Assembly (NCBI GenBank): GCA_041910335.1
Contig: JAYRRF010000024.1
Coordinates: 18,529 to 82,528 of the forward strand
Length of the DNA: 64,000 bases
Direction of reading: 5' to 3'
Source of the DNA: Candidatus Moraniibacteriota bacterium
GTDB lineage: Bacteria > Patescibacteriota > Minisyncoccia > Moranbacterales > UBA1568
The number at the start of each line of letters is the position of its first letter. Position 1 is the stretch's first letter. The notes beneath the pieces are model-generated. The model was not told the origin of the DNA, did not search any database, and saw only the letters and a list, made by a program, of their open reading frames with translations. Made by a program: the position numbers and the translations under genes. This document shows, piece after piece, positions 5,910-35,846 of this stretch.

Positions 5910-5920
5910 GGGAAGCTTTC

Positions 5921-6978: not shown

Positions 6979-7024
6979 GCAAAAGAAGAGTATACTAAAG
7001 ATGTAATTCATAACACTCAAAACT

Positions 7025-7393: not shown

Positions 7394-7557
7394 AAACATT
7401 GAAGCCAACGTCAATGAGAAGAATGTGACGGGAATTTTAGGATTTCTCTTTGGCAAGAAAGTGACGAAGGATAAGAGATTACTTTTTCTTTTGCCATTTA
7501 TCATCGCTTTTATTCAAAGAATCCTTACCAAAAAAACAACAGGTAAGTAATAAACTT

Positions 7558-7977: not shown

Positions 7978-7980
7978 CCA

Positions 7981-8004
7981 AAAACCGAGGGAAACCTCGG
8001 TTTT
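7981..8004. terminator. Bidirectional intrinsic terminator
   Basis: AAAACCGAGG-gaaa-CCTCGGTTTT, with A/T runs on both sides between convergent genes. Confidence 0.75.
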
Positions 8005-8025
8005 GAATAGGCTTTGCTAGAAGAG

Positions 8026-8238
8026 TTATTTCTTCAAGATTTTTGCCATTAGGATAGCGCCAGGGCAGTAACCAGTTAGCGCAAAGATGCATAACATACC
8101 ACCCACAAAGATATCACCCCAGAGGAACCGAACATCGAGAGTGAGAGTGAGAATAGCAAAAGCTATCACGAGCAATCCGCCGACAAGGTACATAGCACGC
8201 TCTACTGACCAAGTATCAGTATTCATTTTGTAAATCAT
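8026..8238 (-). CDS. DUF2892 (YgaP-like, rhodanese-associated) small membrane protein
   Basis: 70 aa, two TM segments, C-terminal GYCPG motif typical of DUF2892. Confidence 0.6.
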   Translation of the reverse strand: MIYKMNTDTWSVERAMYLVGGLLVIAFAILTLTLDVRFLWGDIFVGGMLCIFALTGYCPGAILMAKILKK

Positions 8239-8254
8239 ACGTCTTTTTTATGAG

Positions 8255-18635: not shown

Positions 18636-19397
18636 ATGGAACAGACACCAATTGAGGAAGCTGGCTCACCTCAAGCGGTGAGACCATGGACAGTAATGGG
18701 AATTCAGAAGTTAGTCGCCACATATTTCGGGGTAGAAGTCCTCGATCTCAAATCAAAGGCTCGAAGGAGAGCCGTCTCTCATCCCAGGCAGGTAGCTGTC
18801 TATCTCATCAAAAAGTTCTTTGGTGAGCGCTATAGCTATCCATGGATCGGGGGTAGGTTTGGCGGACGGGACCACTCGACGATGATTCATGCTTACCGAT
18901 GCATTGAAGAAGGGATCGGCAAGAATCCCACTTTGCATCATGACGTCATGACTTTGTGGCACCGCATCACTTTGCAAGGTCCGCCACAAGATGGTGTGGA
19001 TTTCGTGATAGAGCCGAAGGTCAGGCAAGAAAAGAGAGAACCTGATTTTCCTCAAGTAGTGGCAGTGAAAGTACCTGAATTACCAAGGCCAAAGCCCGTC
19101 TTGGCAAGCGCGGAGGTTCGCAGGGTAGTAGCTGATCACTACAGCGTAGAGATACGCTATCTTGAGGACATTCATGATGACGAATACTATCGGTTTTGTC
19201 GAGAAGTGCTGATATTCTTGCTCCAGTACCTCGAGCGACAAGGAGTTGTCATCGGGCATGACCAGTTCTGTGGCACAGAAGAAGAAAGGAGAAAGACCTA
19301 CCGGTACATCCACGGAGTATCGAGAGGAGACAGAGAAATTCGATCCGATATTGAAAGTATCTTGGCGACGCTGGACAAGCTCTCCATCATCCCATGA
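18636..19397 (+). CDS. Standalone DnaA C-terminal (domain IV, DnaA-box-binding HTH) protein with no AAA+ domain; second half looks like a degenerate repeat of the same domain
   Basis: Residues about 20-95 (IQKLVATYFGVEVLDLKSKARRRAVSHPRQVAVYLIKKF...IGGRFGGRDHSTMIHAYRCIEEG) match DnaA domain IV closely. The C-terminal stretch VRRVVADHYSVEIRYLEDI reiterates the start of that domain. GC is elevated. Confidence 0.7.
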   Translation: MEQTPIEEAGSPQAVRPWTVMGIQKLVATYFGVEVLDLKSKARRRAVSHPRQVAVYLIKKFFGERYSYPWIGGRFGGRDHSTMIHAYRCIEEGIGKNPTLHHDVMTLWHRITLQGPPQDGVDFVIEPKVRQEKREPDFPQVVAVKVPELPRPKPVLASAEVRRVVADHYSVEIRYLEDIHDDEYYRFCREVLIFLLQYLERQGVVIGHDQFCGTEEERRKTYRYIHGVSRGDREIRSDIESILATLDKLSIIP

Positions 19398-19422
19398 TAT
19401 TTCAGGTGCTTCAGTGAAGCGA

Positions 19423-19453
19423 TGGCAGCCCACCTCAAGAGGCTGCCTTTTTG
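19423..19453 (+). terminator. Rho-independent terminator
   Basis: GGCAGCC-cacctcaaga-GGCTGCC followed by TTTTT. Confidence 0.75.
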
Positions 19454-19471
19454 TTTCCCAAAATCAGAGTT

Positions 19472-19502
19472 TTCTACTTGGAGATCGAATCTCCAAGTAG
19501 AA
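19472..19502. repeat. Perfect 14-bp inverted repeat with 3-nt spacer (TTCTACTTGGAGAT-cga-ATCTCCAAGTAGAA)
   Basis: Verified by reading: the two arms are exact reverse complements and no T-run follows. It lies in the intergenic DNA after the DnaA-domain gene. Confidence 0.7.
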
Positions 19503-19614
19503 GTGAAGAGATGGCTGGAGATTGACGGGAGAAGGATTTTGCTTTAGGGTGAAGGCAAGAAGGAGGAGGGTGACACCCTCCTTTGCTGTTTAACAAAAGA
19601 AAGGACGCCTTGTC

Positions 19615-20517
19615 ATGGACATGATAGCGCATGCATCAACTGGTGCTTCCTCGCATGACCCTGACCAGGTCATCATCAAGCTCCAATATGAACAGGATGC
19701 CAAGTTGTATTGGCGACCAGAAGACTTGATTTATCACTTCGAGTATGACCTTCGAGATTTGTTTCATCGAGCTGGCCTTCGGGGAGTTCTCGAAGTCAAG
19801 CGTATCGGTCGTCGTGAACGTGGTATCGGCCAAGAGGGCATCGCCCTTGGTCACCCGCAGGATTTCGTCATCGAAATCAATGCCGAGTACGGTCAGCAGA
19901 ATAAGGGAAGGGCTGACGTTTGGTTCATCAAGGTGGACGCCAAGGATACGACTCCGATTCGGGAGCGTCTGACGCGCGCTTTGGCAGGAGAAAAACTTCC
20001 ATCAATACTCGAACCACCAGAAAAGCCTGAGTCGCAGCCGACTATTCCCGAAGAACCAGACGTGTCTACGGCTGATGTGCCGTGGCCTACGTTACCAGGG
20101 CAGGAAAGTTCTGTGAAGGAAGCTCTTTTTCGGCGAGATCCTCTGGGAATGACCTATTGCCTCGTGTTTTTGTGGGGTAGCGCTAACGCTGACAACCAGG
20201 TAGAAAGGGGCGTACTGACCAATATCGCCATGGAGTACTATCCAGAATTTCAGGATAAGCGCAAAACAACACCCATCCACAAGTCGTTTGGTCAAGAAGG
20301 CTTCCTCAGTCGCCTAGAAAGTGGCAACTACCAGCTTTTCCTTGAGCCCATCAAAGCCTTTGTATCAGAACATCACGATGCACTCATAGCATCACCGATG
20401 TTCTGGAAGAAAATCAAAAAGGTTGAAGGGCTTTCCCAGGGTAACCAAGGGAGGATGGCAACGCAGGAGGCGCTACGGGCAATTGAGCGCATCTATGATT
20501 TGATTTTGGAGAAATAA
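19615..20517 (+). CDS. Hypothetical protein (300 aa), high-GC island
   Basis: Long ORF with protein-like composition and no recognisable motif. A strong terminator follows. Confidence 0.5.
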   Translation: MDMIAHASTGASSHDPDQVIIKLQYEQDAKLYWRPEDLIYHFEYDLRDLFHRAGLRGVLEVKRIGRRERGIGQEGIALGHPQDFVIEINAEYGQQNKGRADVWFIKVDAKDTTPIRERLTRALAGEKLPSILEPPEKPESQPTIPEEPDVSTADVPWPTLPGQESSVKEALFRRDPLGMTYCLVFLWGSANADNQVERGVLTNIAMEYYPEFQDKRKTTPIHKSFGQEGFLSRLESGNYQLFLEPIKAFVSEHHDALIASPMFWKKIKKVEGLSQGNQGRMATQEALRAIERIYDLILEK

Positions 20518-20546
20518 ATAACATCCCAAATGGGATAAGGGCTGGA

Positions 20547-20582
20547 GGGCGGGACATCGAACCACGATGACCCGCCCTTTTT
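20547..20582 (+). terminator. Strong Rho-independent terminator (13-bp stem with one mismatch)
   Basis: GGGCGGGACATCG-aacca-CGATGACCCGCCC followed by TTTTT. Confidence 0.8.
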
Positions 20583-20672
20583 GCTTTTGTAAAAATATAT
20601 ACCAAAAGAGAAGAGCCGCTATCCGAATAGGACAGCGGCTCATTCTGTGGATCATTGATCCTGTTGGCTGGT

Positions 20673-21146
20673 TTAGCCCGAACATTCGTAGGACTTGCCA
20701 TCGTGTTCGGCAGCGGCCTCGTAACCGCGCCAGAGGTAGACGATCTGCGGTGAGCAGTCGTTACGCAGGCGATGGTCGCCAAGAGCCTTGCGGCGCTCAG
20801 CGAAGTCCTTGTGGTCGCGGGCGCTCTGTTCGAACGTGCCCCAGTCGTTATCGACCGTGAGTCTGTCGAAGACCTCCGGCCAGGCAGCTTTCACCACTCT
20901 TCGCCGTTCGGCAAAGATGGCCGCCTTTTCGTTCTCTGGGCAGAAAGTACCGCAAGCCACGAACTTGCGGAAGTTCCTTTCCACAGCCGGGTCTCGGCGT
21001 ACCAGCTCGCTGGCTAGGCTGCCGATGCGATCATCCATTATTCCCAAGCGGCTTCCGGGATAAACCCAGCTGCAGCCATTGGGCAGGATGATCAGGGTGA
21101 ATAGCAACAAGGCCGCTATTCCCAGGCTCAAGAGTACTTTCTTCAC
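20673..21146 (-). CDS. Secreted/membrane-anchored Cys-containing hypothetical protein, paralog of 40217..40762
   Basis: GTG start at 21146 with an AGGAGA RBS 7 nt upstream. Signal-peptide-like MKKVLLSLGIAALLLFTLIIL. Shares WP(E/L)VFDRL and RLRN(D/H)C blocks with the protein at 40217..40762. High GC. Confidence 0.55.
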   Translation of the reverse strand: MKKVLLSLGIAALLLFTLIILPNGCSWVYPGSRLGIMDDRIGSLASELVRRDPAVERNFRKFVACGTFCPENEKAAIFAERRRVVKAAWPEVFDRLTVDNDWGTFEQSARDHKDFAERRKALGDHRLRNDCSPQIVYLWRGYEAAAEHDGKSYECSG

Positions 21147-21201
21147 GCGCAATCTCCTCTGAAATGGCGTGAATAGTGTAGCACTCTTTTGAAAAAAGTC
21201 A

Positions 21202-21780
21202 ATGGACACCAAGAAGCACATTAAGAAGCAGTCGTCTCTCAAGAGGCAGCTTCAGCAGCTTGGCAAGTCAGTCGATGGTGTGGAGGAGGCTTACCGCCAA
21301 ATCCGCGAAGTGGCTGATCTTCACCATCATGCCAAGTCTGGTGGCTACGAAAAAGCACTGGGCCGAGCAGGTACCGCTATCCGCAGTGCCCGTGAGGTGG
21401 TGGAACATGAAGATGCTGGTGTCAACGCTCGAGGTATGATCACTCGGGCAAACAATGCCAAGACCGACGCCGTCAGCATGGCGCATCAGCCGAAGCCTGA
21501 CTGGATCGGTGCCATGATGACGCTTGATGCAGTAAGCGAGCTTGCTCGCCAAGCACAGGCCGAGGCAGAGCGTGATATCGGTTCAGCCGAAGAAGCTCGT
21601 CAAAGAGCAGCTCGCCGTCGTCGCGATGAAGAAGATCGTCGTCGCCGACAACGGGACGATGATTCTTCCGATGACGGATACGGTGGAGGCAGATCTTCGT
21701 CGTCCAATTCTTCAGGAGGCGTTTTTGGCGGTTTCGGCGGGGGCAACTCTGGTGGTGGTGGCGCTACCGGTAGCTGGTAG
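21202..21780 (+). CDS. Hypothetical protein with Arg/Asp-rich and Gly/Ser-rich C-terminal tail
   Basis: ORF in the high-GC island. C-terminus reads RRRRDEEDRRRRQRDDDSSDDGYGGGRSSSSNSSGGVFGGFGGGNSGGGGATGSW. A long hairpin terminator follows. Confidence 0.45.
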   Translation: MDTKKHIKKQSSLKRQLQQLGKSVDGVEEAYRQIREVADLHHHAKSGGYEKALGRAGTAIRSAREVVEHEDAGVNARGMITRANNAKTDAVSMAHQPKPDWIGAMMTLDAVSELARQAQAEAERDIGSAEEARQRAARRRRDEEDRRRRQRDDDSSDDGYGGGRSSSSNSSGGVFGGFGGGNSGGGGATGSW

Positions 21781-21815: not shown

Positions 21816-21856
21816 GGGGAGGTGGCTTCAGCTGAAGCTACCTCCCTCTCTTTTTA
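21816..21856 (+). terminator. Rho-independent terminator (long palindromic stem)
   Basis: GGGAGGTGGCTTCAG/CTGAAGCTACCTCCC followed by TCTCTTTTT. Confidence 0.75.
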
Positions 21857-21866
21857 TCCGGAGGCA

Positions 21867-21901
21867 TACTTTTTGCTTTTGTAGAGGGGAAAGAGTAGAA
21901 T
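21867..21901 (+). promoter_or_regulatory. Copy 1 of a 35-nt duplicated promoter element (TTGCTT-17-TAGAAT) upstream of the DUF3800 gene
   Basis: TACTTTTTGCTTTTGTAGAGGGGAAAGAGTAGAAT. -35 TTGCTT at 21873-21878 and -10 TAGAAT at 21896-21901. ATG at 21909, so the transcript would be near-leaderless. Confidence 0.6.
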
Positions 21902-21908
21902 TTTAGGT

Positions 21909-22553
21909 ATGAATACACCACAATCAACAAAACAATTAGTATTTATTGATGATTCGGGTGATCCTGGCTTTAAGTTGGAACAGGGTTCTACGAGCCACTT
22001 TGTAATAGCATGCGTGATTTTTGATGATACTTTAGATGCTGAGGAAGCAGCCTTGATAATAAAAAAGTATAGGCGCGAGCTTGGCTGGTCTGACCAGCGA
22101 GAGTTTAAGTTTAACAAAACAAATAAAAAGCTGATCAAAGAGCTTTTAGAAAGATTGCAAGGCGTAGGTTTTCGGGTGAGGGCAATTTGTATTGATAAAA
22201 AAAGAATCTATAGTCATGAGCTCAAAAATAAGCAAGACTCTTTCTATAACTACGCTATCAAGGAAGTTTTGGAAAAAACAAAAACTCTCAGTCATGCTAG
22301 CGTAAAGCTCGATGGGCATTCTGGACGTACCTACAAAAAATCAGCCATCACTTATTTGCGGAGAGAGGTAAATAAAAAATCATCAAAAATAGCGAAGGTA
22401 AAGTTTGTCCATTCTCATTCAGATGTGCTTATTCAGCTCGCTGACCTAGTAGCAGGAGCTATACTGAGATCTACTCAAGAGACTAAAACTGACCATAAAG
22501 ACTACCTTCAAATTATCCAAAAAAAAGTAGAAGATGTTTGGTATTTTGGATAA
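21909..22553 (+). CDS. DUF3800-family protein
   Basis: N-terminal LVFIDDSGDPGF motif characteristic of DUF3800. Low GC. Confidence 0.6.
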   Translation: MNTPQSTKQLVFIDDSGDPGFKLEQGSTSHFVIACVIFDDTLDAEEAALIIKKYRRELGWSDQREFKFNKTNKKLIKELLERLQGVGFRVRAICIDKKRIYSHELKNKQDSFYNYAIKEVLEKTKTLSHASVKLDGHSGRTYKKSAITYLRREVNKKSSKIAKVKFVHSHSDVLIQLADLVAGAILRSTQETKTDHKDYLQIIQKKVEDVWYFG

Positions 22554-22679
22554 AATCAAAACCGACTCCTATCCTAGATGTCCTAGGCACGCACACCATA
22601 CGGTGACAGTTCAGAGCCGGTTTCATTTGTACTGGAATTATAGCATCTGAAGGGTTTTTGTCAAGGTACCAAGAAACGG

Positions 22680-22714
22680 TACTTTTTGCTTTTGTAGAGG
22701 GGAAAGGGTAGAAT
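22680..22714 (+). promoter_or_regulatory. Copy 2 of the 35-nt duplicated promoter element (TTGCTT-17-TAGAAT) upstream of the PLD-SNF2 gene
   Basis: TACTTTTTGCTTTTGTAGAGGGGAAAGGGTAGAAT, 34/35 identical to copy 1. -35 at 22686-22691, -10 at 22709-22714. ATG at 22743. Confidence 0.6.
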
Positions 22715-22742
22715 AGGGGTATATTTTCCTAATTTTAGACTC

Positions 22743-25700
22743 ATGTCTTACTCTAAGATTATTGACAATAAAAGGGTGTCCTTGAAGGATGTTCTTTTAG
22801 ACGTATCGAAAAACTTTTCTGAACTCTCAATTGCCACTGGTTATTGGGATATTGAGGGCATGAGGTTGGTTCTGAATTCAATAAAGGAGTATAAAAAAGT
22901 CCGTATCCTTATAGGAAGAGAGCCTTTACTGAAGAGAGATAATAAGACCGGTATCGATCAACCTGAACCAGACTATCCAGATCAGGATTTTTTTGAAGAT
23001 CTTCAAAGAATCAGCCCTTCTTCGGAATTAAAGCAAGTTGTTATAGCGTTGAAAAAACTGATCGACAACGGTCAGTTAGAGGTAAAAGTATATCGCAGGT
23101 CATTTTTACATGCAAAATGCTACATTTTTGGAAATTATGAGTCAACGGAAGCAGTAGGAATCATTGGTTCTTCGAATTTTACTAGAAATGGCATGACCTC
23201 TAACTCTGAATTAAATTCACTCGAATCAGATCATCGAGTAGTTGCATTTAGACCACAGACTGAACAGCAAGAAGTTGGACATTTATATTGGTTCGATAAT
23301 CTTTGGGATGATGCACTGACGGAGGATTGGACAGGAAAATTTATCGAATTAGTACGTACCTCACCACATGGTGATCTTTTGAATAGTCCTCGTGATATGT
23401 ATTTACGTACACTCTATGAGCTTTATCGTCATGAAATTGAACAGGAAGAGGAGGACATTATTAATCCTACCTCGAAAAAACTTTTTGAATTTCAAGAAAA
23501 AAATGTCAAAAATTTAAAGAGAATTTTAGATACTTACGGAGTTGCCATGCTAGCTGATTCGGTAGGGCTTGGTAAAACTATTTCTGCAATGGGCGTGATT
23601 AAACAATATAAAAATCAACGCGTAGTTGTTATTGCACCAAAAACGCTTGGTCAACAATGGGAGCAAGAGTTAGCTCAAGAGGATCTTCATAATGTCCGGG
23701 TTGTTTCTTTACAAAACAGACAAGAGATTGAAGAGCAGATAAATATTGATCAGTACAGCTCACCAGCACTCTTTGTGATTGATGAATCTCATAACCTCCG
23801 ATCCAACAATGGAACACGTTATGAATTGATTTCAGATTGGATTTCGAGCTCGTACAATGAAGAATCACATGTGCTGCTTTGTACAGCTACCCCAATCAAT
23901 AACTCGCTTACTGATCTTACGAGTCAAATTCTTCTTGGCGCACGTGGAGATCAGGATATTTTTACTTTGGCCGTTAAGACATACGGAGGACAAGTGGTGA
24001 CGAGGTCTTTTTATGAAGCCATTGATAATATAAGAAAACGTATTCAGCAAGATATTGCTCAGGGAGGAGAGAACTTAGAAGAAATTTATTTGGAGGCTCG
24101 TATTACCTTGGAGCCTATTATTCGTAATTTTGTAGTACGCAATACTCGTCAAAGTATCGGTTCATTGATTTCAGAGAATGGTGATGTACAAAATTTCCCA
24201 GAAGTAAAGATCAACAACACTAAATATCAGCCAGTACAGGTGCCACTTACCATCAGTGAACGACATCAGAAAATAACAAGTCATTCTATTGAGCAATTAG
24301 CTGATACGATGGATCGACTTAAGCATCCTATGCGTCAGATTGATGATCTTGATGTTGAGGGTGTTGCTCCCGAAAATGCAAACTCAATTTATCGTATATA
24401 CCAGCTGATTCTTGGGCTCTCGTTTGTGCCGTATCGGTGGTATATGTATGACTTTAGGCTTTATGATAAGACGAGAGATGAGTTGAGAAATATGCGCTTG
24501 TCTGGCTCCGACCTGATGAAAATCAATATGCAATTGAGCCTTTATGGAATCATGAGAACGCTTTTCTTGAAGCGCTTAGAATCATCAGCGTATGCTCTGG
24601 AAGTTTCATTGAAACGATACTTAAATCGATTGCAAGTATTTGAGCAGATTCTTCGTGATGAAAATATAATTATCAACCTCTCCGAAGTTGCCGATATCTT
24701 AGATGAGTATTCTCCAGATGACGGAGACCAGATTACTTATTCGACAGAGGAATTGTTGGAAAAGGCTCGCAAAAATCCAGAAGAAGTAGATAAGAATTTT
24801 AATAAGACAGTGCTACTTGAAGATATCCATATAGAGAAAGATCTTATCTCTGAAATCATTGGTCTTGTGGCTACCATAAAATCTACAGATCCAAAAATTA
24901 AAGATTTAAAGAGAAAATTAAAGGATTCGTATAGAGAAGATCCAGCCAAAAAGATACTCATCTTTACTTTTTTTGCTGACACTATAGATTACATTGAAAA
25001 AGAATTAGGGACTGATCCTGATATGAAGGAAGTTTTTAATCAGTCAGCTTTTGTTTCAGGAAGGGACAGAAGGCATGCTCTGCACTGTGCAAATCGTTTT
25101 GCTCCAGAAGCCAAGGGCGCGCAAAGTCTCGTAGCAGAAGAAGGTGAAATTACTTATCTTTTTGCTACAGATGTTCTTTCGGAAGGTCAAAACTTGCAAG
25201 ATTGTGGAGAGATTATCAATTATGATCTTCACTGGAATCCGGTGCGCATGGTACAGCGCAATGGTCGTATCAATCGATTGGGTACCAAACATGAAACAGT
25301 GTGGGTTGATAATTTTGTGCCAGGTGATGATCTGGAGCTCTTTTTGGGTATCATGGATCGATTAAACAAAAAGATTGAATTGATTAAACATGCTATAGGA
25401 AATGACTCTTCTATTTTTGGAGAAACTATAGATGCACGTAGCTACACAGATCTTTATAGTGATGATGCAAATAGAGCCTCGATTGCTTATGATCAACTTG
25501 AGACAAGTATAGACGCCTTTTCTGACGATATCTTTTTGAAAGATCTTAAGCACTTTCTAAAAAAAGCTACAGATGAAGAAATTCGTCAAATGAAGCGTAT
25601 CCCGTATGGATCATGGGGGATTGTACCTCAAGGTCTTACTGATCCCAATGATGTGATTCTGTTTTCCAAATTAGCGTATACAAACGGGATTACAAAAAAT

Positions 25701-26168
25701 ATTTTCTTTGGAAATGATAGAGAGGCTTTTGGAATAGGAATTATTCAAAATACCTTAGCATTGCAAATGCTTCGTTCTAGTTTGGAAGATAAGCCGTTGG
25801 ATACAATTTTGTTAGACAAAGAAAAGCAAATTCAAACCATGTTTCGCAGGGGACCCCAAATTGCCAGAGATACGAATGTAGATAGTTCACTGACTCCTAC
25901 CAAGGAAAGAGTATTGAACGAATCAAGGGTATACGGATGGAGTGCCGAAGAAATAGACAAATTACGTTCCACTCTTTCTACACGCAATGTAAATCTTGGA
26001 CGAAAAGTTAGTCGTATTGTTCGACTTATCAATGCAGCTATCAAAGAAAATATTTCAACAGAAAGTTATTATAGAGATCTCAAGAAGCTTTTAGTGGAAC
26101 CTTCTGAATCAGCGATGGTGACGGATGTACAGTTTTTGCTTGGGTATACTGATCATTACTCACGATAA
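22743..26168 (+). CDS. Phospholipase-D-family (HKD) nuclease fused to an SNF2-family SF2 helicase (1141 aa); restriction/defense-type
   Basis: N-terminal single HKD motif: FLHAKCYIFGN...GIIGSSNFTRNG. Helicase motifs: I LADSVGLGKT, II VIDESHNLRS, III LLCTATP. A long insert follows, then C-terminal motifs V LFATDVLSEGQNLQ and VI HWNPVRMVQRNGRINRLG. Confidence 0.85.
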   Translation: MSYSKIIDNKRVSLKDVLLDVSKNFSELSIATGYWDIEGMRLVLNSIKEYKKVRILIGREPLLKRDNKTGIDQPEPDYPDQDFFEDLQRISPSSELKQVVIALKKLIDNGQLEVKVYRRSFLHAKCYIFGNYESTEAVGIIGSSNFTRNGMTSNSELNSLESDHRVVAFRPQTEQQEVGHLYWFDNLWDDALTEDWTGKFIELVRTSPHGDLLNSPRDMYLRTLYELYRHEIEQEEEDIINPTSKKLFEFQEKNVKNLKRILDTYGVAMLADSVGLGKTISAMGVIKQYKNQRVVVIAPKTLGQQWEQELAQEDLHNVRVVSLQNRQEIEEQINIDQYSSPALFVIDESHNLRSNNGTRYELISDWISSSYNEESHVLLCTATPINNSLTDLTSQILLGARGDQDIFTLAVKTYGGQVVTRSFYEAIDNIRKRIQQDIAQGGENLEEIYLEARITLEPIIRNFVVRNTRQSIGSLISENGDVQNFPEVKINNTKYQPVQVPLTISERHQKITSHSIEQLADTMDRLKHPMRQIDDLDVEGVAPENANSIYRIYQLILGLSFVPYRWYMYDFRLYDKTRDELRNMRLSGSDLMKINMQLSLYGIMRTLFLKRLESSAYALEVSLKRYLNRLQVFEQILRDENIIINLSEVADILDEYSPDDGDQITYSTEELLEKARKNPEEVDKNFNKTVLLEDIHIEKDLISEIIGLVATIKSTDPKIKDLKRKLKDSYREDPAKKILIFTFFADTIDYIEKELGTDPDMKEVFNQSAFVSGRDRRHALHCANRFAPEAKGAQSLVAEEGEITYLFATDVLSEGQNLQDCGEIINYDLHWNPVRMVQRNGRINRLGTKHETVWVDNFVPGDDLELFLGIMDRLNKKIELIKHAIGNDSSIFGETIDARSYTDLYSDDANRASIAYDQLETSIDAFSDDIFLKDLKHFLKKATDEEIRQMKRIPYGSWGIVPQGLTDPNDVILFSKLAYTNGITKNIFFGNDREAFGIGIIQNTLALQMLRSSLEDKPLDTILLDKEKQIQTMFRRGPQIARDTNVDSSLTPTKERVLNESRVYGWSAEEIDKLRSTLSTRNVNLGRKVSRIVRLINAAIKENISTESYYRDLKKLLVEPSESAMVTDVQFLLGYTDHYSR

Positions 26169-29100
26169 TGAATTACGATCAAATCAATCAACAATTAGAG
26201 ACAATACGCAAAACTAAAAACATTGAAGATGTGCAGTCTTTGGTGTGTCTTTTGCTTGAGCCGCTAGGTATTGTAGGATGCAAGCCTGAAGAATTACTTA
26301 ATCATAGCTCGGTACAACGTGAATTTTCTCGTTTCATGCCCGCACAAGGGTTCAGAGATCGAGCTGCTGCTTATACCATCAAACATACGTCGGATTTGCC
26401 GGTAGATATCAAACTCTACTGGATCAAAAAAACCACCAAAGCCAATCTTTCATGGCTCATGGCTCTTACTCCTAATTACGAAGACAACCCAGAGATTAAT
26501 ACCTCTATGAATCTGGGCATCGATATTATAGTTTCAGAGAATTGTGAAAGTATCTATCTGGTACTTTCAAGTATGCTCAAAGTTCGAGTATTGGAGTTAA
26601 ATGGGGTTCTCTCTCATACTCAGAGAGAAATACTTGAGAACTGGCAGAAAATAGGTTCTACTACAGATTCTCAATCAGAGAACTTCAAGCAAGAATTGCA
26701 TAAACTTCTTTGGAAGAGTTTTGACTTTGAGCCGATCAACCGTAAATTCTATCAAGAACTTGTCACACAGTTTGATCATCTAGTCCTTCATCTCAAGCCT
26801 ATAGTTGGGGAGGCATCGGCCAAGATGTTTGCAGTGAGGTTTATCGGAAGAACACTCTTTTTGTGGTTTCTCCGCAAAAAGGATTTTATCAATCCAGAGA
26901 AAGAATACTTCAATGTTTCAGGAAGTGATGATCAGAGTCTTTACTACCATTCCAAGTTAGAATCATTGTTTTTTGAGGTGCTCAACACTGAGGTAAAATC
27001 ACGTAGTTTTGATGATTTTGTGACTCCATTTCTTAATGGAGGGCTATTTGAGCCAATAGAAACAGATTTTTATAGGGATGAGAAGCTGACTTTTCCAGAA
27101 GGATTCTTCACTCAGTTCTTTGATGTCCTTAATCGCTATAATTTCACCGTAGATGAGGGTACTTCTGAGTATGAGCAAGTGGCGGTGGATCCAGAAATGT
27201 TGGGACGAGTATTTGAGAATCTCCTCGCTTCTATCAATGATGAGACAGGCGGGCAGGCCCGTAAGTCTAAAGGAGCTTTTTATACACCTCGTGAGATTGT
27301 GGACTATATGTGCAAGCAGTCTCTCATAGAGTATTTAAAAACAAAGCTTCCAGATACCGCTAATCGAGATCGTCGTATAGAAGAACTTGTCACTATGGAC
27401 GAGGCCACATTTCGTGATCAGGATCACAACAAGCGTCGTGACTGGAAGAAAGATCTTGGTCAAGAGACTGTACTAAAAGCCCTTGATGAATTACGTATCC
27501 TTGATCCGGCAGTTGGGTCGGGCGCTTTTCCTATGGGTATGCTGAATCTCTTGGTCAAGGTCTATACACGTATTGATACTAGCAGAGAGAAAGATCTTGC
27601 TACGCTCAAAAGAGAAATTCTTTCTCGATCGCTCTATGGTGTAGATATAGATCAGATGGCTATACAGATTAGTCGTCTCCGAGCCTGGCTTTCTATTTTG
27701 GTAGATATGGAGAGTCTCAAAAAAATTGATCCGCTGCCAAACCTAGACTTCAAGTTTGTTTGTGCTAATACGTTGATAGCCCTTGATGAAGGGCCAAATA
27801 GTTTATTTGATACTGATATAGAACTCAAAAAACATTTGATAGATCTTAGGGATAAGTACTACGCTGCTACACGTAAGGTAGACAAAGGGAAAATTAGAAA
27901 AGAATATCTATTTTCTATTCAAAAGGGAGGCGAATTATTCGCTTCCAAAAGAGAATTGCAGTTGAGGGATTATAATCCTTTTAATCCTCTTAATTCTACC
28001 AATTTCTATGATCCTGAACTCATGCACGGAGTGGAGAGTTTTGATGTCGTGATAGGTAATCCGCCATACGTGCAGCTTCAAAAGTTTGCCCGTACTCAAA
28101 TTCAGAAAGATTTAGAGAATGAAAAATACCAAACCTTTGCAAAAACAGGAGATTTATACGCTCTCTTTTACGAAAAAGGATTGAATCTTACCAGTCTAGA
28201 TTCAGGTTTGCTCTGTTACATTACGAGCAACAAGTGGATGAGGGCGGGGTATGGCGAAAGTCTTCGTAGATATTTTGTGCAACACAATCCGCTTCTTTTG
28301 CTAGATTTAGGAAGTGGTGTGTTTGAGAGTGCTACGGTAGATAGTAATATTTTATTGATTCAGAATACCTTAAATAAAGGAGAAACAAAGGCAGTCACGA
28401 TTAAGGATAATAAGAAAAGTTTTTCTACTCAGTTGCAAGAACATGGATCAGTGGTAAATTTTGATTCAAGTGGTCCGTGGTTTATTGGTACTCAAGTAGA
28501 GATTAATCTAAAAAATAAAATTGAGACAAATGGAAAACCTCTTAAAGATTGGGATGTTTCAATTAACTATGGTATAAAGACCGGCCTTAATGAAGCTTTT
28601 ATTATTAATCAGGAAAAACGAGATGAGTTGATTGCTCAGGATCTAAAAAGTGAAGAAATTATTAAGCCTATTTTGCGAGGAAGGGATATAAAGAGATATT
28701 CCTACAATTTTTCAGGTCTATATTTGTTAATGACAGGTTTTGATTTTGACATTCCAGTGGAATACCCTGTCGTTTTTAATCATCTGAAGCAGTTTGAAGA
28801 AAAGGCAAAGAAAAGAGATGATCAGGGTAAAAATTGGTGGAATTTGAGAGCATGCGTTTATTATGATGAGTTTGAAAAAGAAAAAATAGTATGGGGAAAT
28901 ATAGCATACAATTCCACTTTTTCAGTGCTAGGTAGTAGCTATTACTTAAATGCTCCTGGAAACCTTATAACTTCTAATTCCACTAGTTTAAAGTTTTTGT
29001 TAGGTTGTTTAAATTCGAAAATATTCAATTGGGAATTCAAAAAAGAAGGTATATTTTTAGGGAATGCTTATGAATGGAAGAAGCAGTATGTAGAACAGAT

Positions 29101-29287
29101 TCACTTGCCATTGAAACAAGATTCACAAAGTATTAAAAAAATTGAGAGTATTGTTGAAAAAATCATATACTTAAAAAAAATAAATCTTGATGCAGACACC
29201 AAAGATCTAGAAGCTCAAATTGATCAGCTTGTTTATCACCTTTATGACCTAACAGAAGATGAAATTAAGATAATTGAAGAATCTTAA
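26168..29287 (+). CDS. Gamma-class N6-adenine DNA methyltransferase with Eco57I/TaqI-like C-terminal target-recognition domain (Type IIG/ISP/PglX-like architecture, no recognisable nuclease domain; 1039 aa)
   Basis: FLNGGLFEP and KGAFYTPREIVDYM N-terminal motifs, motif I ILDPAVGSGAFPMG, motif IV VIGNPPYVQ. TaqI_C-like GIKTGLNEAFII and ILRGRDIKRY. C-terminal LYDLTEDEIKIIE. The start overlaps the upstream stop (TAATG), consistent with translational coupling. Confidence 0.85.
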   Translation: MNYDQINQQLETIRKTKNIEDVQSLVCLLLEPLGIVGCKPEELLNHSSVQREFSRFMPAQGFRDRAAAYTIKHTSDLPVDIKLYWIKKTTKANLSWLMALTPNYEDNPEINTSMNLGIDIIVSENCESIYLVLSSMLKVRVLELNGVLSHTQREILENWQKIGSTTDSQSENFKQELHKLLWKSFDFEPINRKFYQELVTQFDHLVLHLKPIVGEASAKMFAVRFIGRTLFLWFLRKKDFINPEKEYFNVSGSDDQSLYYHSKLESLFFEVLNTEVKSRSFDDFVTPFLNGGLFEPIETDFYRDEKLTFPEGFFTQFFDVLNRYNFTVDEGTSEYEQVAVDPEMLGRVFENLLASINDETGGQARKSKGAFYTPREIVDYMCKQSLIEYLKTKLPDTANRDRRIEELVTMDEATFRDQDHNKRRDWKKDLGQETVLKALDELRILDPAVGSGAFPMGMLNLLVKVYTRIDTSREKDLATLKREILSRSLYGVDIDQMAIQISRLRAWLSILVDMESLKKIDPLPNLDFKFVCANTLIALDEGPNSLFDTDIELKKHLIDLRDKYYAATRKVDKGKIRKEYLFSIQKGGELFASKRELQLRDYNPFNPLNSTNFYDPELMHGVESFDVVIGNPPYVQLQKFARTQIQKDLENEKYQTFAKTGDLYALFYEKGLNLTSLDSGLLCYITSNKWMRAGYGESLRRYFVQHNPLLLLDLGSGVFESATVDSNILLIQNTLNKGETKAVTIKDNKKSFSTQLQEHGSVVNFDSSGPWFIGTQVEINLKNKIETNGKPLKDWDVSINYGIKTGLNEAFIINQEKRDELIAQDLKSEEIIKPILRGRDIKRYSYNFSGLYLLMTGFDFDIPVEYPVVFNHLKQFEEKAKKRDDQGKNWWNLRACVYYDEFEKEKIVWGNIAYNSTFSVLGSSYYLNAPGNLITSNSTSLKFLLGCLNSKIFNWEFKKEGIFLGNAYEWKKQYVEQIHLPLKQDSQSIKKIESIVEKIIYLKKINLDADTKDLEAQIDQLVYHLYDLTEDEIKIIEES

Positions 29288-29291
29288 TGTC

Positions 29292-29846
29292 ATGAGTCAA
29301 TCTTACAAAAACTTCTGGAGTCTGAATACTGACGAGGCTGTAGTAACGGGAATTCTAAAGAGTGAGACCGAAAAACAAGTAGAGGTCCTGATGCCGCTCA
29401 ATGCCCAGATGAAAGGAATAGATCTTTTCTTGATGAACGTAAAAAATAAAAAGATTGTCTCAGTTCAGGTAAAAGGGAGTCGTGCGTACGAACCGAAGCC
29501 TACAGAAGTAAAAAAGTATGGAGCGGGTTCTACGGGCTGGTTCTTTCTTTCACAAGATGTATTTGATAAGTCTTCTGCAGACTTTTTTCTTTTTCTGGTG
29601 TATGTAATCTGTGATTCTAGTAAGACGGGTAAAAGAAGCATCGAAACACATACTATCACTATCCCTACCAAAAAAATTAAGGAACTATGTAAAAAATACA
29701 AAAAACCTCATCCAGATAGATATAGCTTTTATTTTTGGGTAAATCCAGAAGAGAAAAAAGCTTTTGACTTTAGAGATCAGTATTATGATGTGAGTCAGTA
29801 TCTAGACAAGAAAGGTTTTGAAGTCTTAAACAAAATTCTAAAATAG
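29292..29846 (+). CDS. Hypothetical protein, possible PD-(D/E)xK-like fold (weak)
   Basis: ATG lies 4 nt after the methyltransferase stop. GIDLFLMNV...KIVSVQVKGS resembles a D...(E/Q)xK core. No firm family assignment. Confidence 0.45.
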   Translation: MSQSYKNFWSLNTDEAVVTGILKSETEKQVEVLMPLNAQMKGIDLFLMNVKNKKIVSVQVKGSRAYEPKPTEVKKYGAGSTGWFFLSQDVFDKSSADFFLFLVYVICDSSKTGKRSIETHTITIPTKKIKELCKKYKKPHPDRYSFYFWVNPEEKKAFDFRDQYYDVSQYLDKKGFEVLNKILK

Positions 29847-29887
29847 GGACAGGGGGGTATTGTTAAAATTGATGGTCTTAAAAATAT

Positions 29888-30355
29888 ATGTCTAATATAA
29901 AATTTGCGCGGAATTTAGTGAAAGGAAAAATTGCTGAGACAGTATTTGCTCAGATGCTTCGTGATACTAAGGAGTTTACTGTGTTGGAGTTTGGCTATGA
30001 GAAAATTATCCCAGAGCTCGTGCAGCGTGGCGCCAAAGAGGGAGATAAGGAGCTGGAAACCTTGCGCACAGCACCAGACTTTGCAGTAATCAATAAGACG
30101 ACAAATAAAGTGCATCTTATCGAAGTAAAGTATCGTAAAACAAAAAAGAAAAGCGATATCTTGGCTATCGCCACGCGTATGACAAAATCTTGGAATCCAT
30201 CATATCTTTTCTTGGCTACTCAAGACGGATTCTATTTTGATGAAGTCCAAGAAATCATAAAAAATTGTGGCAATATAAAACCATTGGCGCATGAACACAT
30301 ACCACAAGAGTTACAAAAAGATTATTTAGAAATACTTAATGCTTTTGAAAAATAA
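29888..30355 (+). CDS. PD-(D/E)xK nuclease-fold protein (YraN/Hjc-like motif arrangement)
   Basis: GKIAETVFAQML (Gly-x-x-A-E helix), then APDFAV, then VHLIEVKYRK (D...E-x-K). Confidence 0.5.
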   Translation: MSNIKFARNLVKGKIAETVFAQMLRDTKEFTVLEFGYEKIIPELVQRGAKEGDKELETLRTAPDFAVINKTTNKVHLIEVKYRKTKKKSDILAIATRMTKSWNPSYLFLATQDGFYFDEVQEIIKNCGNIKPLAHEHIPQELQKDYLEILNAFEK

Positions 30356-35108: not shown

Positions 35109-35846
35109 ATGACCAAAAATAACCTCATTTTCCTGGATACTGAGACGACCGGACTGACCCCAGAAGACCGTCTCTGTCAGCTTGCCTATACTTTTCAAGG
35201 AAAGGAATTCGAAGCTCTATTCAAGCCACCACTGCCAATTTCTATCGAAGCAATGTCGGTCACTCATATCACCAATCGCATGGTGGCTGATAAAGAGGTG
35301 TTTGCTGATTCCCGGGCGAAGTCAGAGCTCATCCATCTGTTAGGAGAGGGGAATATACTAGTCGCTCACAATGCACGATTTGATATCGATATGCTCAAGC
35401 GAGAAGGGGTAGAAGTAGGTAAGTATATCGACACCTTCAAGGTCGCCTATGCCTTGGATGAGCAAGGTGAGATCCCACGTTACGCATTGCAGTACCTTCG
35501 TTACTATTTCGACCTCGATGTATCGGAAGCGACAGCGCACAGTGCACTTGGCGATGTACGCGTACTAGTAGCAGTGTTTGACTTTCTGTTTGCCAAGATG
35601 ATGGTGGTGCACCAGGATGAAGACCGGGTCATCGAAGAGATGAGCGCCCTTTCTGATAAGCCTCTTCTCTTCCGCACTTTCACCTTCGGGAAGTATAGTG
35701 GGCAGTCTATCAAAGAAGTCGCTGCTAACGATCAGGGCTATATCGCCTGGCTCCTCAATCAAAAAATCATGAATCGTGAGAATGGTGGTGAAGATGATGA
35801 GAACTGGATTTATACACTCGACTATTATCTCGAAAAAACATCATGA
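35109..35846 (+). CDS. DEDDh 3'-5' exonuclease (DnaQ/ExoX-like) with C-terminal DUF3820-like domain
   Basis: Exo I FLDTETTGL, Exo II VAHNARFDIDML, Exo III HSALGDV. C-terminal FGKYSGQSIKEV...YIAWLL. Confidence 0.8.
   Translation: MTKNNLIFLDTETTGLTPEDRLCQLAYTFQGKEFEALFKPPLPISIEAMSVTHITNRMVADKEVFADSRAKSELIHLLGEGNILVAHNARFDIDMLKREGVEVGKYIDTFKVAYALDEQGEIPRYALQYLRYYFDLDVSEATAHSALGDVRVLVAVFDFLFAKMMVVHQDEDRVIEEMSALSDKPLLFRTFTFGKYSGQSIKEVAANDQGYIAWLLNQKIMNRENGGEDDENWIYTLDYYLEKTS

What the first reader, a model, noticed from the sequence alone, without database searches (positions are those of the whole stretch)
21867..30355. Non-canonical restriction/defense operon: DUF3800, PLD::SNF2 helicase fusion, Type IIG-like N6A methyltransferase and two small nuclease-fold proteins
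The operon is low-GC (about 35% in sampled 60-nt stretches against about 45% core). It encodes (1) a DUF3800 protein; (2) an 1141-aa fusion of an N-terminal single-HKD phospholipase-D-family nuclease to a complete SNF2-type SF2 helicase (DESH box, QRNGRINRLG motif VI); (3) a 1039-aa gamma-class N6-adenine methyltransferase with the NGGLF/GAFYTP/NPPY motif set and a TaqI/Eco57I-like C-terminal target-recognition domain, which is the architecture of Type IIG/ISP enzymes and BREX PglX but without any nuclease domain; and (4) two small proteins with D...(E/Q)xK-like cores at 29292..29846 and 29888..30355. Genes 2 to 4 are tightly coupled: stop and start overlap as TAATG at 26166-26170, there is a 4-nt gap at 29288-29291, and a 41-nt gap follows. 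The components resemble DISARM class 1 (DrmC PLD + DrmD SNF2 helicase + DrmMI adenine methyltransferase) but DrmC and DrmD are fused and no DrmA/DrmB (DUF1998) core genes are present in the window. It can equally be read as a Type ISP enzyme split into a nuclease-helicase subunit and a methyltransferase-TRD subunit, with a PLD nuclease replacing the Mrr/PD-(D/E)xK nuclease. I do not recognise this gene combination as a named system.
Basis: partly seen in the sequence, partly recalled or inferred. Interest (0 to 1): 0.9.

Follow-up and report, generated by a model that had tools for sequence, protein, structure and literature searches.

The report
Two-gene helicase-nuclease and methylase restriction system

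Summary
All five ORFs, their motifs, the TAATG overlap, the 4-nt and 41-nt gaps and the low GC (0.36-0.38 against 0.47) are present.

The "operon" is four modules, not one.

(1) Core: PLD::SNF2 (22743-26168) plus an Eco57I/MmeI-like N6A methyltransferase with a TaqI_C recognition domain (26168-29287). The two genes are adjacent and co-oriented in every close relative sampled. They co-vary in sequence, while the recognition domain diverges freely.

(2) DUF3800 has its own partner, a DUF3800-IX RNA (Rfam, 65 bits) on the opposite strand behind a perfect sigma-70 promoter. This cassette is bracketed by a duplicated 35-nt promoter-like repeat.

(3, 4) The two small proteins are real PD-(D/E)xK nucleases. 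Neither accompanies the pair elsewhere, and they never accompany each other.

The system is not DISARM, MANTIS/Gao_RL, Type ISP or a proven Type IIG enzyme. The best reading is an ATP-dependent R-M system in which the methylase subunit finds sites and protects self DNA, and the PLD-motor subunit cuts.

The same pair was described from annotation in Lactococcus plasmid pLd8 in 2018 and noted again in 2023. I found no name and no experiments.

The parts
21816..21847 (+). Strong intrinsic-terminator-like hairpin ending the upstream, higher-GC gene. It marks the left edge of the low-GC island.
   Evidence: 14-bp stem with 8 GC pairs followed by a T run. GC drops from 0.53 to 0.38 here.
21867..21901 (+). 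Copy 1 of a 35-nt direct repeat that reads as a promoter (TTGCTT, 17 nt, TAGAAT), just upstream of DUF3800.
   Evidence: Only two matches in the window with 3 mismatches allowed; none expected by chance.
21909..22553 (+). DUF3800 protein (214 aa), a separate module. The N-terminal DDSGD and C-terminal QLAD motifs are intact.
   Evidence: Pfam PF12686, E 2e-16. PADLOC candidate PDC-M04A, 51 bits. The literature describes DUF3800 as RNase H-like and associated with non-coding RNAs.
22555..22623 (-). DUF3800-IX small RNA, convergent with DUF3800 and ending 2 nt beyond its stop codon.
   Evidence: Rfam RF02968, 65.2 bits against a gathering score of 36.8, E 1e-13, full-length match 1-67.
22637..22664 (-). 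Perfect sigma-70 promoter (TTGACA, 16 nt, TATAAT, with an extended -10 TG) placed to drive the DUF3800-IX RNA.
   Evidence: 12 of 12 consensus matches, the only such site in 10.5 kb. It ends 14 nt upstream of the first RNA model position.
22680..22714 (+). Copy 2 of the 35-nt promoter-like repeat, upstream of PLD-SNF2. Copies 1 and 2 bracket an 813-bp DUF3800-plus-RNA cassette.
   Evidence: 97% identical to copy 1. The repeat is absent upstream of the close homologues in L005 and L173.
22743..26168 (+). Core gene 1: a 1141-aa restriction subunit. It has a single-HKD PLD nuclease (about aa 1-200), an SNF2-type SF2 motor (about aa 240-900) and a fast-evolving C-terminal region (aa 900-1141).
   Evidence: Pfam hits. 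Invariant H123, K125, G142-S-S-N145, the Walker A stretch D272-T279, D347-E348-x-H350 and Q838-R845 across 13 homologues at 41-78% identity. PADLOC best hit C3a139 'HKD+Snf2', 168 bits. The closest PDB sequence relative is RapA.
26168..29287 (+). Core gene 2: a 1039-aa modification and specificity subunit. It has a conserved N-terminal alpha/beta domain (aa 1-165), an MmeI/HsdM-like helical spacer (166-430), a gamma-class N6A methyltransferase (431-800) and a TaqI_C recognition domain (801-1039).
29292..29846 (+). sp4: a 184-aa stand-alone PD-(D/E)xK nuclease (E15, D44, Q59-V-K61), probably co-transcribed with the pair. It is not a conserved partner of the pair.
29888..30355 (+). sp5: a 155-aa stand-alone PD-(D/E)xK nuclease (E17, P63-D64, E79-V-K81). 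It is not a conserved partner of the pair or of sp4.
   Evidence: Family motifs. 22 of 43 members weakly match Pfam TnsA-like N. It has no fixed neighbour in 80 metagenome loci and is never next to sp4.

Best explanation
The functional unit is the gene pair at 22743-29287. It is a two-subunit, ATP-dependent restriction-modification system.

The 1039-aa subunit recognises a short DNA sequence through its TaqI_C-type recognition domain. It methylates an adenine there with its gamma-class NPPY methyltransferase, which marks host DNA as self.

The 1141-aa subunit is the restriction arm. Its SNF2-type motor uses ATP to move along double-stranded DNA from unmodified sites. Its N-terminal PLD domain carries only one HKD half-site, so two copies must come together to form one active site and cut.

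By analogy with Type ISP enzymes and MANTIS, cutting is expected to be most efficient between inverted (head-to-head) unmodified sites, and methylation may be on one strand only.

What is shown here: the domain identities, intact and conserved catalytic motifs, translational coupling, near-universal adjacency, and co-variation of the two genes with free divergence of the recognition domain. What is inferred: complex formation, ATP-driven translocation, dimerisation-dependent cleavage, site-orientation dependence, and hemimethylation.

The flanking genes are separate cargo of the same low-GC island. These are DUF3800 with its RNA, and the two small nucleases sp4 (29292-29846) and sp5 (29888-30355). 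sp4 occupies a variable 'third-gene slot' directly after the methylase. In other genomes that slot holds other nucleases or ATPases.
For: Domains and motifs.

Coupling: the stop and start codons overlap by one base.

Adjacency:
- PLD-SNF2 relatives have a large Eco57I-type methylase on the same strand in 73 of the PLD-SNF2 loci examined (L001-L085, L173-L176 and the window).
- This holds in every locus sampled at 33% identity or more that has downstream sequence: L001-L007, L010-L012, L015 and L173-L176, and the plasmid loci L179 and L180.
- The reverse test also holds. Two methylase homologues chosen from the methylase search each have a PLD-SNF2 gene directly upstream.

Co-variation: the methylase spacer is 84% identical where the motor is 82%, 69% where it is 61% and 51% where it is 43%, while the recognition domain stays at 25-45%.

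Mobility as a unit: on Lactococcus and Lactiplantibacillus plasmids the pair is the main cargo. On pJM1F it sits beside an inverted TaqI_C cassette and an Mpi invertase, which indicates switchable specificity.

Mechanistic precedent: the MANTIS subunit MtsD is a dimeric PLD-SF2 protein with one shared PLD site. MANTIS hemimethylates asymmetric sites and restricts best at inverted sites.

Same inference in print: PMC6098607 proposed for pLd8 that the PLD protein supplies restriction.

Variable third slot: PLD nuclease (L006), ABC-type ATPase (L007, L070), DUF1016/YhcG nuclease (L044, L066, L076), DUF3800 (L174) and unknowns.
Against: There is no experiment on any member of this two-gene family in the searched literature.

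The methylase keeps a conserved N-terminal alpha/beta domain with invariant K82 (in a conserved (D/E/Q)xK triplet), E105, D106, D119, R140 and E143. It might itself be a nuclease, which would change the division of labour.

The related MANTIS methylase needs a AAA+ loader and a co-factor, and both are absent here. Restriction by MANTIS could not be reconstituted in vitro, so the analogy is incomplete.

Interaction between the two proteins was not modelled.

Only 64 kb of an 86-kb contig was examined, and the rest of the genome was not available.
Confidence: 0.6

Rival explanations
1. The 1039-aa protein is a complete Type IIG/IIL enzyme that cuts with its own N-terminal nuclease domain. In this reading the PLD-SNF2 protein is an accessory that degrades or remodels DNA processively after the first cut, or widens the range of targets.
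Against: No acidic residue sits in the canonical position before the (D/E/Q)xK triplet. None of the 120 closest homologues carries Pfam MmeI_N. Foldseek and a PDB profile search found nothing for the domain. The N-domain is among the fastest-evolving parts and fades in step with the helicase C-terminus, which fits an interface better than a catalytic site. The authors of PMC6098607 also found no restriction domain.
Confidence: 0.2
2. All five genes (DUF3800, PLD-SNF2, methylase, sp4 at 29292-29846 and sp5 at 29888-30355) form one multi-component defence system.
For: All five lie on the same strand in one low-GC island. The gaps between the methylase, sp4 and sp5 are 4 nt and 41 nt. The same 35-nt promoter-like repeat precedes both DUF3800 and PLD-SNF2. 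DUF3800 recurs next to the pair in L174 and about 2 kb away in L175.
Against: sp4 and sp5 are absent from 85 other PLD-SNF2 loci. Each sits in many unrelated contexts, and they never occur together. DUF3800 has its own RNA partner and promoter, and the same gene-plus-RNA layout occurs in L175, separated from the pair by other genes. The slot after the methylase holds unrelated genes in other genomes.
Confidence: 0.07
3. The locus is a degenerate or minimal DISARM, BREX-related or MANTIS-type system whose missing core genes (DrmA/DrmB, or the DUF499 ATPase with its small partner) act from elsewhere in the genome.
For: The helicase gives sub-threshold hits to DrmD, BrxHI/BrxHII, HmaA and the MANTIS-type PLD helicase. 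The methylase gives weak hits to PglX and DrmMI.
Against: Every NCBIfam score is far below its cut-off: DrmD 142 against 610, the PLD anti-phage protein 156 against 1100, PglX 105 against 500. No such core genes were found among the window ORFs scanned. The pair travels alone on 12-15 kb plasmids and alone in diverse genomes.
Confidence: 0.05
4. The PLD-SNF2 protein is a SauUSI-like Type IV enzyme that attacks modified DNA, and the methylase is an unrelated neighbour.
For: The PLD-plus-SF2-motor architecture is that of SauUSI.
Against: The protein has no DUF3427 or other modification-reading domain. The stop and start codons of the two genes overlap, and the genes are adjacent and co-vary across phyla. 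A Type IV enzyme permanently fused to an adenine methylase operon would risk cutting the host's own DNA.
Confidence: 0.04

Closest known systems
Unnamed PLD-SNF2 plus 'Type IIG-like' methylase pair on lactic-acid-bacteria plasmids (L. lactis FM03P pLd8 orf33/orf34; L. cremoris pJM1F; L. plantarum plas2)
   Same: Same two-gene order and domain content. The helicase is 35-37% identical over about 90% of its length. The methylase is 40% identical over aa 46-1038, including the N-domain invariants. The published reading is the same: PLD supplies restriction, with a DISARM-like domain set.
   Different: The window copy is chromosomal, in a low-GC island of an unidentified organism. It has no invertible recognition-domain cassette or invertase. 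It carries different downstream genes (sp4, sp5). None of these systems has been tested.
Type ISP restriction-modification enzymes (LlaGI, LlaBIII)
   Same: The same set of activities in the same order: nuclease, SF2 motor, gamma-class N6A methylase, recognition domain. Type ISP enzymes recognise asymmetric sites and cut after convergent translocation.
   Different: Here the chain is split into two proteins, the nuclease is a PLD/HKD domain rather than an Mrr-like PD-QxK domain, and the motor is SNF2-like. The behaviour is untested.
MANTIS (Gao_RL, BREX-related type 2)
   Same: An N-terminal PLD nuclease fused to an SF2 motor serves as effector, paired with an adenine methylase that defines self. 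MtsD dimerises to form one PLD site.
   Different: MANTIS needs a DUF499 AAA+ ATPase (MtsA) and a small partner (MtsB), both absent here. The window helicase scores 156 bits against the 1100-bit cut-off of the NCBIfam model. The window methylase is Eco57I/MmeI-like with a TaqI_C domain.
Class 1 DISARM
   Same: It contains an SNF2 helicase (DrmD), a PLD nuclease (DrmC) and a large adenine methylase (DrmMI).
   Different: DrmA and DrmB, the defining core, were not found among the window ORFs scanned. PLD and SNF2 are fused here. DrmD and DrmMI model scores are far below threshold.
Type IIG/IIL enzymes (MmeI, Eco57I, BpuSI, Cj0031)
   Same: The methylase, recognition domain and helical spacer are of this family.
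   Different: Those enzymes cut with an N-terminal PD-(D/E)xK domain and need no ATP or partner. Here the canonical motif is missing and a motor-nuclease gene is always attached.
SauUSI (Type IV) and NgoAVII/CglI
   Same: A PLD nuclease is combined with an SF2-type ATPase for ATP-dependent cleavage.
   Different: SauUSI targets modified DNA through its own reader domain and has no methylase. CglI and NgoAVII keep the nuclease and the ATPase on separate proteins and use a C5 methylase (this last point is from my own knowledge).

Membership tests
Class 1 DISARM | DrmA helicase and DrmB (DUF1998) core genes in the locus | tested here: not met
   No such Pfam or PADLOC assignment among the larger window ORFs scanned. 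The only DrmA hit is to the generic helicase C-lobe of the PLD-SNF2 protein. The rest of the genome could not be checked.
Class 1 DISARM | DrmD and DrmMI equivalogs; DrmC as a separate PLD protein | tested here: not met
   NCBIfam DrmD scores 142 bits against a cut-off of 610. PADLOC DrmMI scores 62 bits against 692 for Type IIG models. PLD is fused to the helicase.
Type ISP R-M | All activities in a single polypeptide with an N-terminal Mrr-like PD-(D/Q)xK nuclease | tested here: not met
   There are two ORFs that overlap by one base. The nuclease is PLDc_2/RE_NgoFVII.
Type ISP R-M | SF2 motor plus gamma-class N6A methylase plus C-terminal recognition domain | tested here: met
   SNF2-rel_dom, ResIII, Helicase_C, Eco57I, N6_Mtase and TaqI_C, but spread over two proteins.
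Type ISP R-M | ATP-dependent cleavage between head-to-head sites after collision | not testable with these tools
   This needs biochemistry.
Type IIG/IIL (MmeI/Eco57I family) | Eco57I-type gamma methylase with TaqI_C recognition domain and MmeI-like helical spacer | tested here: met
Type IIG/IIL (MmeI/Eco57I family) | Catalytic PD-(D/E)xK nuclease domain in the same chain | tested here: inconclusive
MANTIS / Gao_RL / BREX-related type 2 | DUF499 AAA+ ATPase (MtsA) and small partner (MtsB) in the operon | tested here: not met
   Absent from the island and from the larger window ORFs scanned.
MANTIS / Gao_RL / BREX-related type 2 | PLD-SF2 effector equivalent to MtsD | tested here: not met
   Same architecture, but NCBIfam NF042964 scores 156.5 bits against a cut-off of 1100, and PADLOC PLD_Helicase scores 92 bits against 168 for C3a139.
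SauUSI-type Type IV enzymes | PLD plus SF2 ATPase plus C-terminal DUF3427 reader of modified DNA, with no cognate methylase | tested here: not met
   No DUF3427 hit. The gene is translationally coupled to a methylase.
DUF3800 gene with associated RNA motif (Weinberg et al. 2017) | Pfam DUF3800 protein with a DUF3800-I..XI RNA next to it | tested here: met
   PF12686, E 2e-16. RF02968 scores 65.2 bits against a gathering score of 36.8, 2 nt beyond the stop codon on the opposite strand. The paper describes the association.
PD-(D/E)xK nuclease superfamily (sp4, sp5) | Alpha-beta-beta-beta-alpha-beta core with E, D and (D/E/Q)xK catalytic residues | tested here: met

The most novel reading that the evidence does not exclude
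The PLD-SNF2/methylase pair is a distinct, widespread and still unnamed class of ATP-dependent restriction-modification system. It is the minimal, loader-free counterpart of MANTIS and a split, HKD-armed counterpart of Type ISP. Cleavage would require two converging motor subunits to assemble one PLD active site. The position directly after the methylase gene would be a plug-in slot for back-up effectors, here an I-Ssp6803I-like nuclease.
Probability: 0.45. Interest if true: 0.6.

Novelty: new variant of a known kind. Interest (0 to 1): 0.45.

Why it matters
The pair is common. About 3,900 protein clusters match the helicase at E 1e-10 or better, although only the closest carry the full PLD-SNF2 architecture. 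At least 593 stretches encoding relatives were found in species-representative genomes, from CPR bacteria to Thaumarchaeota, and the pair also occurs on dairy-starter plasmids.

Annotation tools are likely to label the locus a 'Type IIG' enzyme plus an anonymous helicase. PADLOC's models do so for the two proteins, and REBASE does so for the pLd8 homologue. That would hide an ATP-dependent system inside Type II counts.

With only two genes, it is the simplest available setting for asking how a PLD-helicase effector is coupled to a site-specific methylase. MANTIS needs two further proteins for this, and its restriction has resisted reconstitution. A working minimal system could answer that question.

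It would also give a programmable specificity module, because the recognition domains swap freely and are invertible on pJM1F.

For dairy starter strains it is a likely but uncharacterised phage barrier.

Tried and rejected
- Profile searches of the methylase N-domain and of sp5 (the 155-aa ORF at 29888-30355) against PDB sequences gave only noise.
- Exact-sequence look-ups of the window's own helicase and methylase found no record. Cluster look-up gave no names. The source organism is therefore unidentified. The closest relatives are from CPR/Patescibacteria-type metagenome bins.
- A plain phmmer search for DUF3800, sp4 (the 184-aa ORF at 29292-29846) and sp5 in 85 PLD-SNF2 loci found none. 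A small DUF3800 HMM then recovered only L174 and L175/L176.
- I looked for phase-variation features in the window, namely homopolymer tracts, inverted recognition-domain cassettes and an invertase, and found none.
- I tested whether the 35-nt promoter-like repeat belongs to the PLD-SNF2 operon in close relatives. It is not conserved upstream in L005 or L173.
- Viral contigs hold only distant helicase relatives (33% identity or less, many without the PLD part) and a single sp4 locus. A phage origin is not supported.
- sp4 and sp5 are not specifically related to each other (hhalign probability 4%).
- No tRNA, integrase or transposase marks the island edges in the window.
- DISARM, BREX, MANTIS and SauUSI readings were considered and rejected on the membership tests.


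Full report

Yes. Six-frame ORF listing gives ORFs at 21909-22553 (214 aa), 22743-26168 (1141 aa), 26168-29287 (1039 aa), 29274/29292-29846 (190/184 aa) and 29888-30355 (155 aa), all on the + strand. I call the last two sp4 and sp5.

The second and third ORFs overlap by one base (TAATG). sp4 starts 4 nt after the methylase stop codon. Its homologues begin at the equivalent ATG, so 29292 is the start. sp5 follows after 41 nt.

The island from about 21.85 to 30.95 kb has GC 0.34-0.40, and the five genes have 0.36-0.38 against 0.47 in the flanks.

Pfam confirms DUF3800 for the first ORF. It confirms PLDc_2/RE_NgoFVII, SNF2-rel_dom, ResIII and Helicase_C for the second, and Eco57I, N6_Mtase, MmeI_Mtase and TaqI_C for the third.

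The public gene model for the helicase (1130 aa) starts 11 codons too late. Residues 7-9 are nearly invariant in homologues.

**2. The conserved unit is two genes.**

The PLD-SNF2 protein belongs to a large family. About 3,930 protein clusters match at E 1e-10 or better, and the closest are all about 1,140 aa with the same Pfam set.

I examined the neighbourhoods of homologues at 78%, 77%, 59%, 52% and 46% identity and of 80 loci from species-representative genomes.

- A large methylase related to the window's lies on the same strand in 73 of the PLD-SNF2 loci examined. It is usually directly downstream, with a gap between -62 and +30 nt.
- Most of the loci without one end at a contig edge or belong to the most distant branch.
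- The reverse test holds. Two methylase homologues picked from the methylase search (57% and 50% identical) each have a 1144- or 1164-aa PLD-SNF2 gene immediately upstream.

Domain-by-domain identities show that the two genes evolve together:

| Locus | Motor | Methylase spacer | Methylase N-domain | Recognition domain |
|---|---|---|---|---|
| L005 | 82% | 84% | 67% | 34% |
| L001 | 61% | 69% | 54% | 39% |
| L006 | 43% | 51% | 31% | 31% |

The recognition domain stays at 25-45% throughout, as expected if specificities are swapped. The helicase C-terminus and the methylase N-domain are the fastest-evolving parts, and both become undetectable at the same evolutionary depth. That fits a shared interface, but it is only suggestive.

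**3. The other genes are separate modules.**

*DUF3800.* Rfam places a full-length DUF3800-IX RNA (RF02968, 65.2 bits, gathering score 36.8) at 22555-22623 on the minus strand, ending 2 nt beyond the DUF3800 stop codon.

A perfect sigma-70 promoter (TTGACA, 16 nt, TATAAT, with TG) lies at 22664-22637 on the same strand, 14 nt upstream of the RNA.

Weinberg et al. described eleven unrelated RNA motifs that accompany DUF3800 genes, of unknown function (PMC5737381). DUF3800 is RNase H-like and serves as an effector in type VII retrons and next to Cas12a2.

The same layout, with the DUF3800 gene followed by an antisense DUF3800-V RNA, occurs in L175 about 2 kb from its PLD-SNF2 gene with other genes in between.

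In the window, a 35-nt promoter-like repeat (TTGCTT, 17 nt, TAGAAT) occurs exactly twice, before DUF3800 and before PLD-SNF2. The two copies bracket an 813-bp DUF3800-plus-RNA cassette. The repeat is not found upstream of close PLD-SNF2 homologues.

DUF3800 recurs near the pair in L174 (directly after the methylase) and in L175/L176, but not in the other loci.

*sp4.* No Pfam, NCBIfam, PADLOC or PHROG family matches it. Its family is strikingly conserved, at 57-86% identity among proteins from Parcubacteria, Falkowbacteria, Dysgonamonadaceae, Pacearchaeota, Woesearchaeota and Nanoarchaeota. E15, D44 and Q59-V-K61 are invariant.

Elsewhere sp4 sits in quite different settings:
- 1 nt after a Type III Mod-Res-DUF2779 operon;
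- after a DUF2726 gene in an island with DUF4365 and a ParB-methylase;
- near an MmeI-like enzyme;
- next to DUF4238 and a serine recombinase.

*sp5.* Its family conserves E17, P63-D64 and E79-V-K81, and half the members weakly match the TnsA-like nuclease domain. In 80 metagenome loci it has no recurrent neighbour and is never beside sp4. sp4 and sp5 are related only at superfamily level.

*The third-gene slot.* The position right after the methylase is variable. It holds a PLD nuclease in L006, ABC-type ATPases in L007 and L070, a DUF1016/YhcG nuclease in L044, L066 and L076, DUF3800 in L174, a roughly 1,100-aa unknown protein in L005 and L178, other unknowns in L173, L175 and L177, and nothing in L001.

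sp4 is the window's occupant of that slot. It is probably co-transcribed, but it is not a defining part of the system.

**4. The methylase N-terminus.**

An AF2 model of residues 1-440 (pLDDT 84) shows two parts.

Within that first domain the family conserves a (D/E/Q)xK triplet at 80-82, N-x-E-D at 103-106, G-I-D at 117-119, L-S at 133-134 and R-x-x-E-L at 140-144.

There is no acidic residue in the canonical place before the triplet. None of the 120 closest homologues has Pfam MmeI_N. Foldseek and a PDB profile search are silent.

I cannot tell whether this domain is an odd nuclease or a docking or regulatory domain. This is the main uncertainty for the mechanism.

**5. Most likely mechanism.**

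*Shown:*
- a single-HKD PLD domain with invariant H123, K125 and GSSN;
- a complete SF2 motor (Walker A D272-T279, DExH, motif VI) whose nearest solved sequence relative is the SNF2-family protein RapA;
- an intact gamma-class N6A methylase with a TaqI_C recognition domain;
- translational coupling, fixed adjacency and co-variation of the two genes.

*From established knowledge of the families:* single-HKD nucleases (Nuc, BfiI, SauUSI) form their active site across a dimer, and SNF2 motors translocate on double-stranded DNA.

*From the MANTIS preprint:* the PLD-SF2 effector MtsD is a dimer with one PLD site. The methylase hemimethylates asymmetric 6-bp sites, and inverted unmodified sites are restricted best.

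*Inferred for this locus:* the methylase subunit finds unmodified sites and recruits or licenses the PLD-SNF2 subunit. ATP-driven translocation brings two motor subunits together, the PLD halves pair, and the DNA is cut away from the sites. Methylation of host sites prevents this.

I put 0.6 on the two-subunit ATP-dependent R-M reading with PLD as the restriction nuclease. I put about 0.35 on the specific collision-and-dimerisation step.

**6. Comparison with known systems.**

- *DISARM class 1:* the DrmA/DrmB core was not found among the window ORFs scanned. DrmD scores 142 bits against a cut-off of 610, and DrmMI 62 bits against 692 for Type IIG models. Not a member.
- *MANTIS/Gao_RL:* there is no DUF499 ATPase or small partner, and the effector model scores 156 against 1100. 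Not a member, though the effector architecture is shared.
- *Type ISP:* same activities in the same order, but split into two chains with PLD in place of the Mrr-like nuclease. It may work like one but is not a member.
- *Type IIG:* the methylase, recognition and spacer parts qualify. The nuclease criterion is unresolved.
- *SauUSI:* there is no reader domain, and a methylase is attached.
- PADLOC's best model for the helicase is C3a139 'HKD+Snf2'. That cluster was first listed as a neighbour of type III CRISPR loci.

**7. Novelty.**

The pair is not new to print.

- Van Mastrigt et al. (2018) described orf33 (PLD + SNF2 + helicase) and orf34 on L. lactis plasmid pLd8. REBASE calls orf34 Type IIG, but the authors found no restriction domain in it. 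They proposed that the PLD supplies restriction and noted the resemblance to class 1 DISARM.
- Milman et al. (2023) listed Cj0031-like Type II R-M genes flanked by a PLD + SNF gene among targets of programmed inversion.
- I confirmed that the lactococcal pJM1F system belongs to the same family. The helicase is 35% identical and the methylase 40% identical over nearly its full length, with the N-domain invariants present. It carries an inverted TaqI_C cassette and an Mpi invertase.

Searches of the held literature found no name and no experiments for this two-gene family.

I therefore rate the system a variant of known kinds (Type ISP-like and MANTIS-like R-M). It is already noticed but uncharacterised. 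The window holds one more member, with an unusual set of neighbours.

**8. Limits.**

- The source organism is unknown.
- Only 64 kb of the genome was available.
- The sp5 fold rests on motifs and weak profile hits only.
- All biochemical steps are inferred.

Noticed in passing
window 22555-22664, minus strand: A DUF3800-IX small RNA (Rfam RF02968, 65 bits) lies convergent with the DUF3800 gene. It sits behind a perfect TTGACA-16-TATAAT promoter with an extended -10 TG. The function of DUF3800 gene-plus-RNA pairs is still unknown.
   Followed up: partly
window 21867-21901 and 22680-22714: A 35-nt promoter-like direct repeat (one mismatch between copies) brackets an 813-bp cassette of DUF3800 plus its RNA. 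This suggests the cassette was inserted in front of the PLD-SNF2 operon with duplication of the promoter. The repeat is absent upstream of the close homologues in L005 and L173.
   Followed up: partly
window 29292-29846; L086-L092, L181: The sp4 family (184 aa, similar in fold to the I-Ssp6803I homing endonuclease) is 57-86% identical between CPR bacteria, Bacteroidota and DPANN archaea. It sits a few nucleotides after the last gene of unrelated R-M or defence operons. Such conservation across domains points to recent horizontal spread of a selfish or accessory nuclease gene.
   Followed up: partly
window 35109-37324: An RNase T/ExoX-type exonuclease gene (35109-35846) overlaps the start of a DUF2779 (Cas4-like) gene (35843-37324), and a Pif1 helicase gene lies at 38686-40011. 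DUF2779 genes also sit next to sp4 homologues in L088 and L090.
   Followed up: no
L179 (Lactococcus cremoris plasmid pJM1F), locus 5425-10230: The orthologous methylase is followed by an inverted TaqI-like specificity cassette and an Mpi-family DNA invertase. This layout implies switchable recognition specificity for this two-gene system.
   Followed up: partly
L175 3220-4068: A DUF3800 gene is followed by an antisense DUF3800-V RNA (Rfam, 65 bits). This is the same layout as in the window but with a different RNA motif, about 2 kb upstream of that genome's PLD-SNF2/methylase pair.
   Followed up: partly
window 22743-22775: The public gene model for the PLD-SNF2 protein (P0001, 1130 aa) starts 11 codons downstream of the ATG at 22743. 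Residues 7-9 are nearly invariant in homologues, so the longer ORF is the better call.
   Followed up: yes
window 18636-21780: A higher-GC stretch (0.50-0.53) lies just left of the island. It encodes a protein with only the DnaA C-terminal DNA-binding domain (18636-19397) and two ORFs without family matches (19615-20517 and 21202-21780, the latter ending in a glycine-rich tail).
   Followed up: no
L001 2772-2885 and 17543-20660: In the locus of the 59%-identical homologue, a LOOT RNA (Rfam, 70 bits) lies near a large serine recombinase upstream. A Gabija-like AAA_15 ATPase plus UvrD helicase pair lies downstream. The pair there also sits in a defence island on a mobile element.
   Followed up: no
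window 965-3553 and 44621-47416: Two UvrA-like ABC ATPase paralogues lie in one 64-kb window, with UvrC-like (42530-43807) and MgsA (60670-61968) genes nearby.
   Followed up: no
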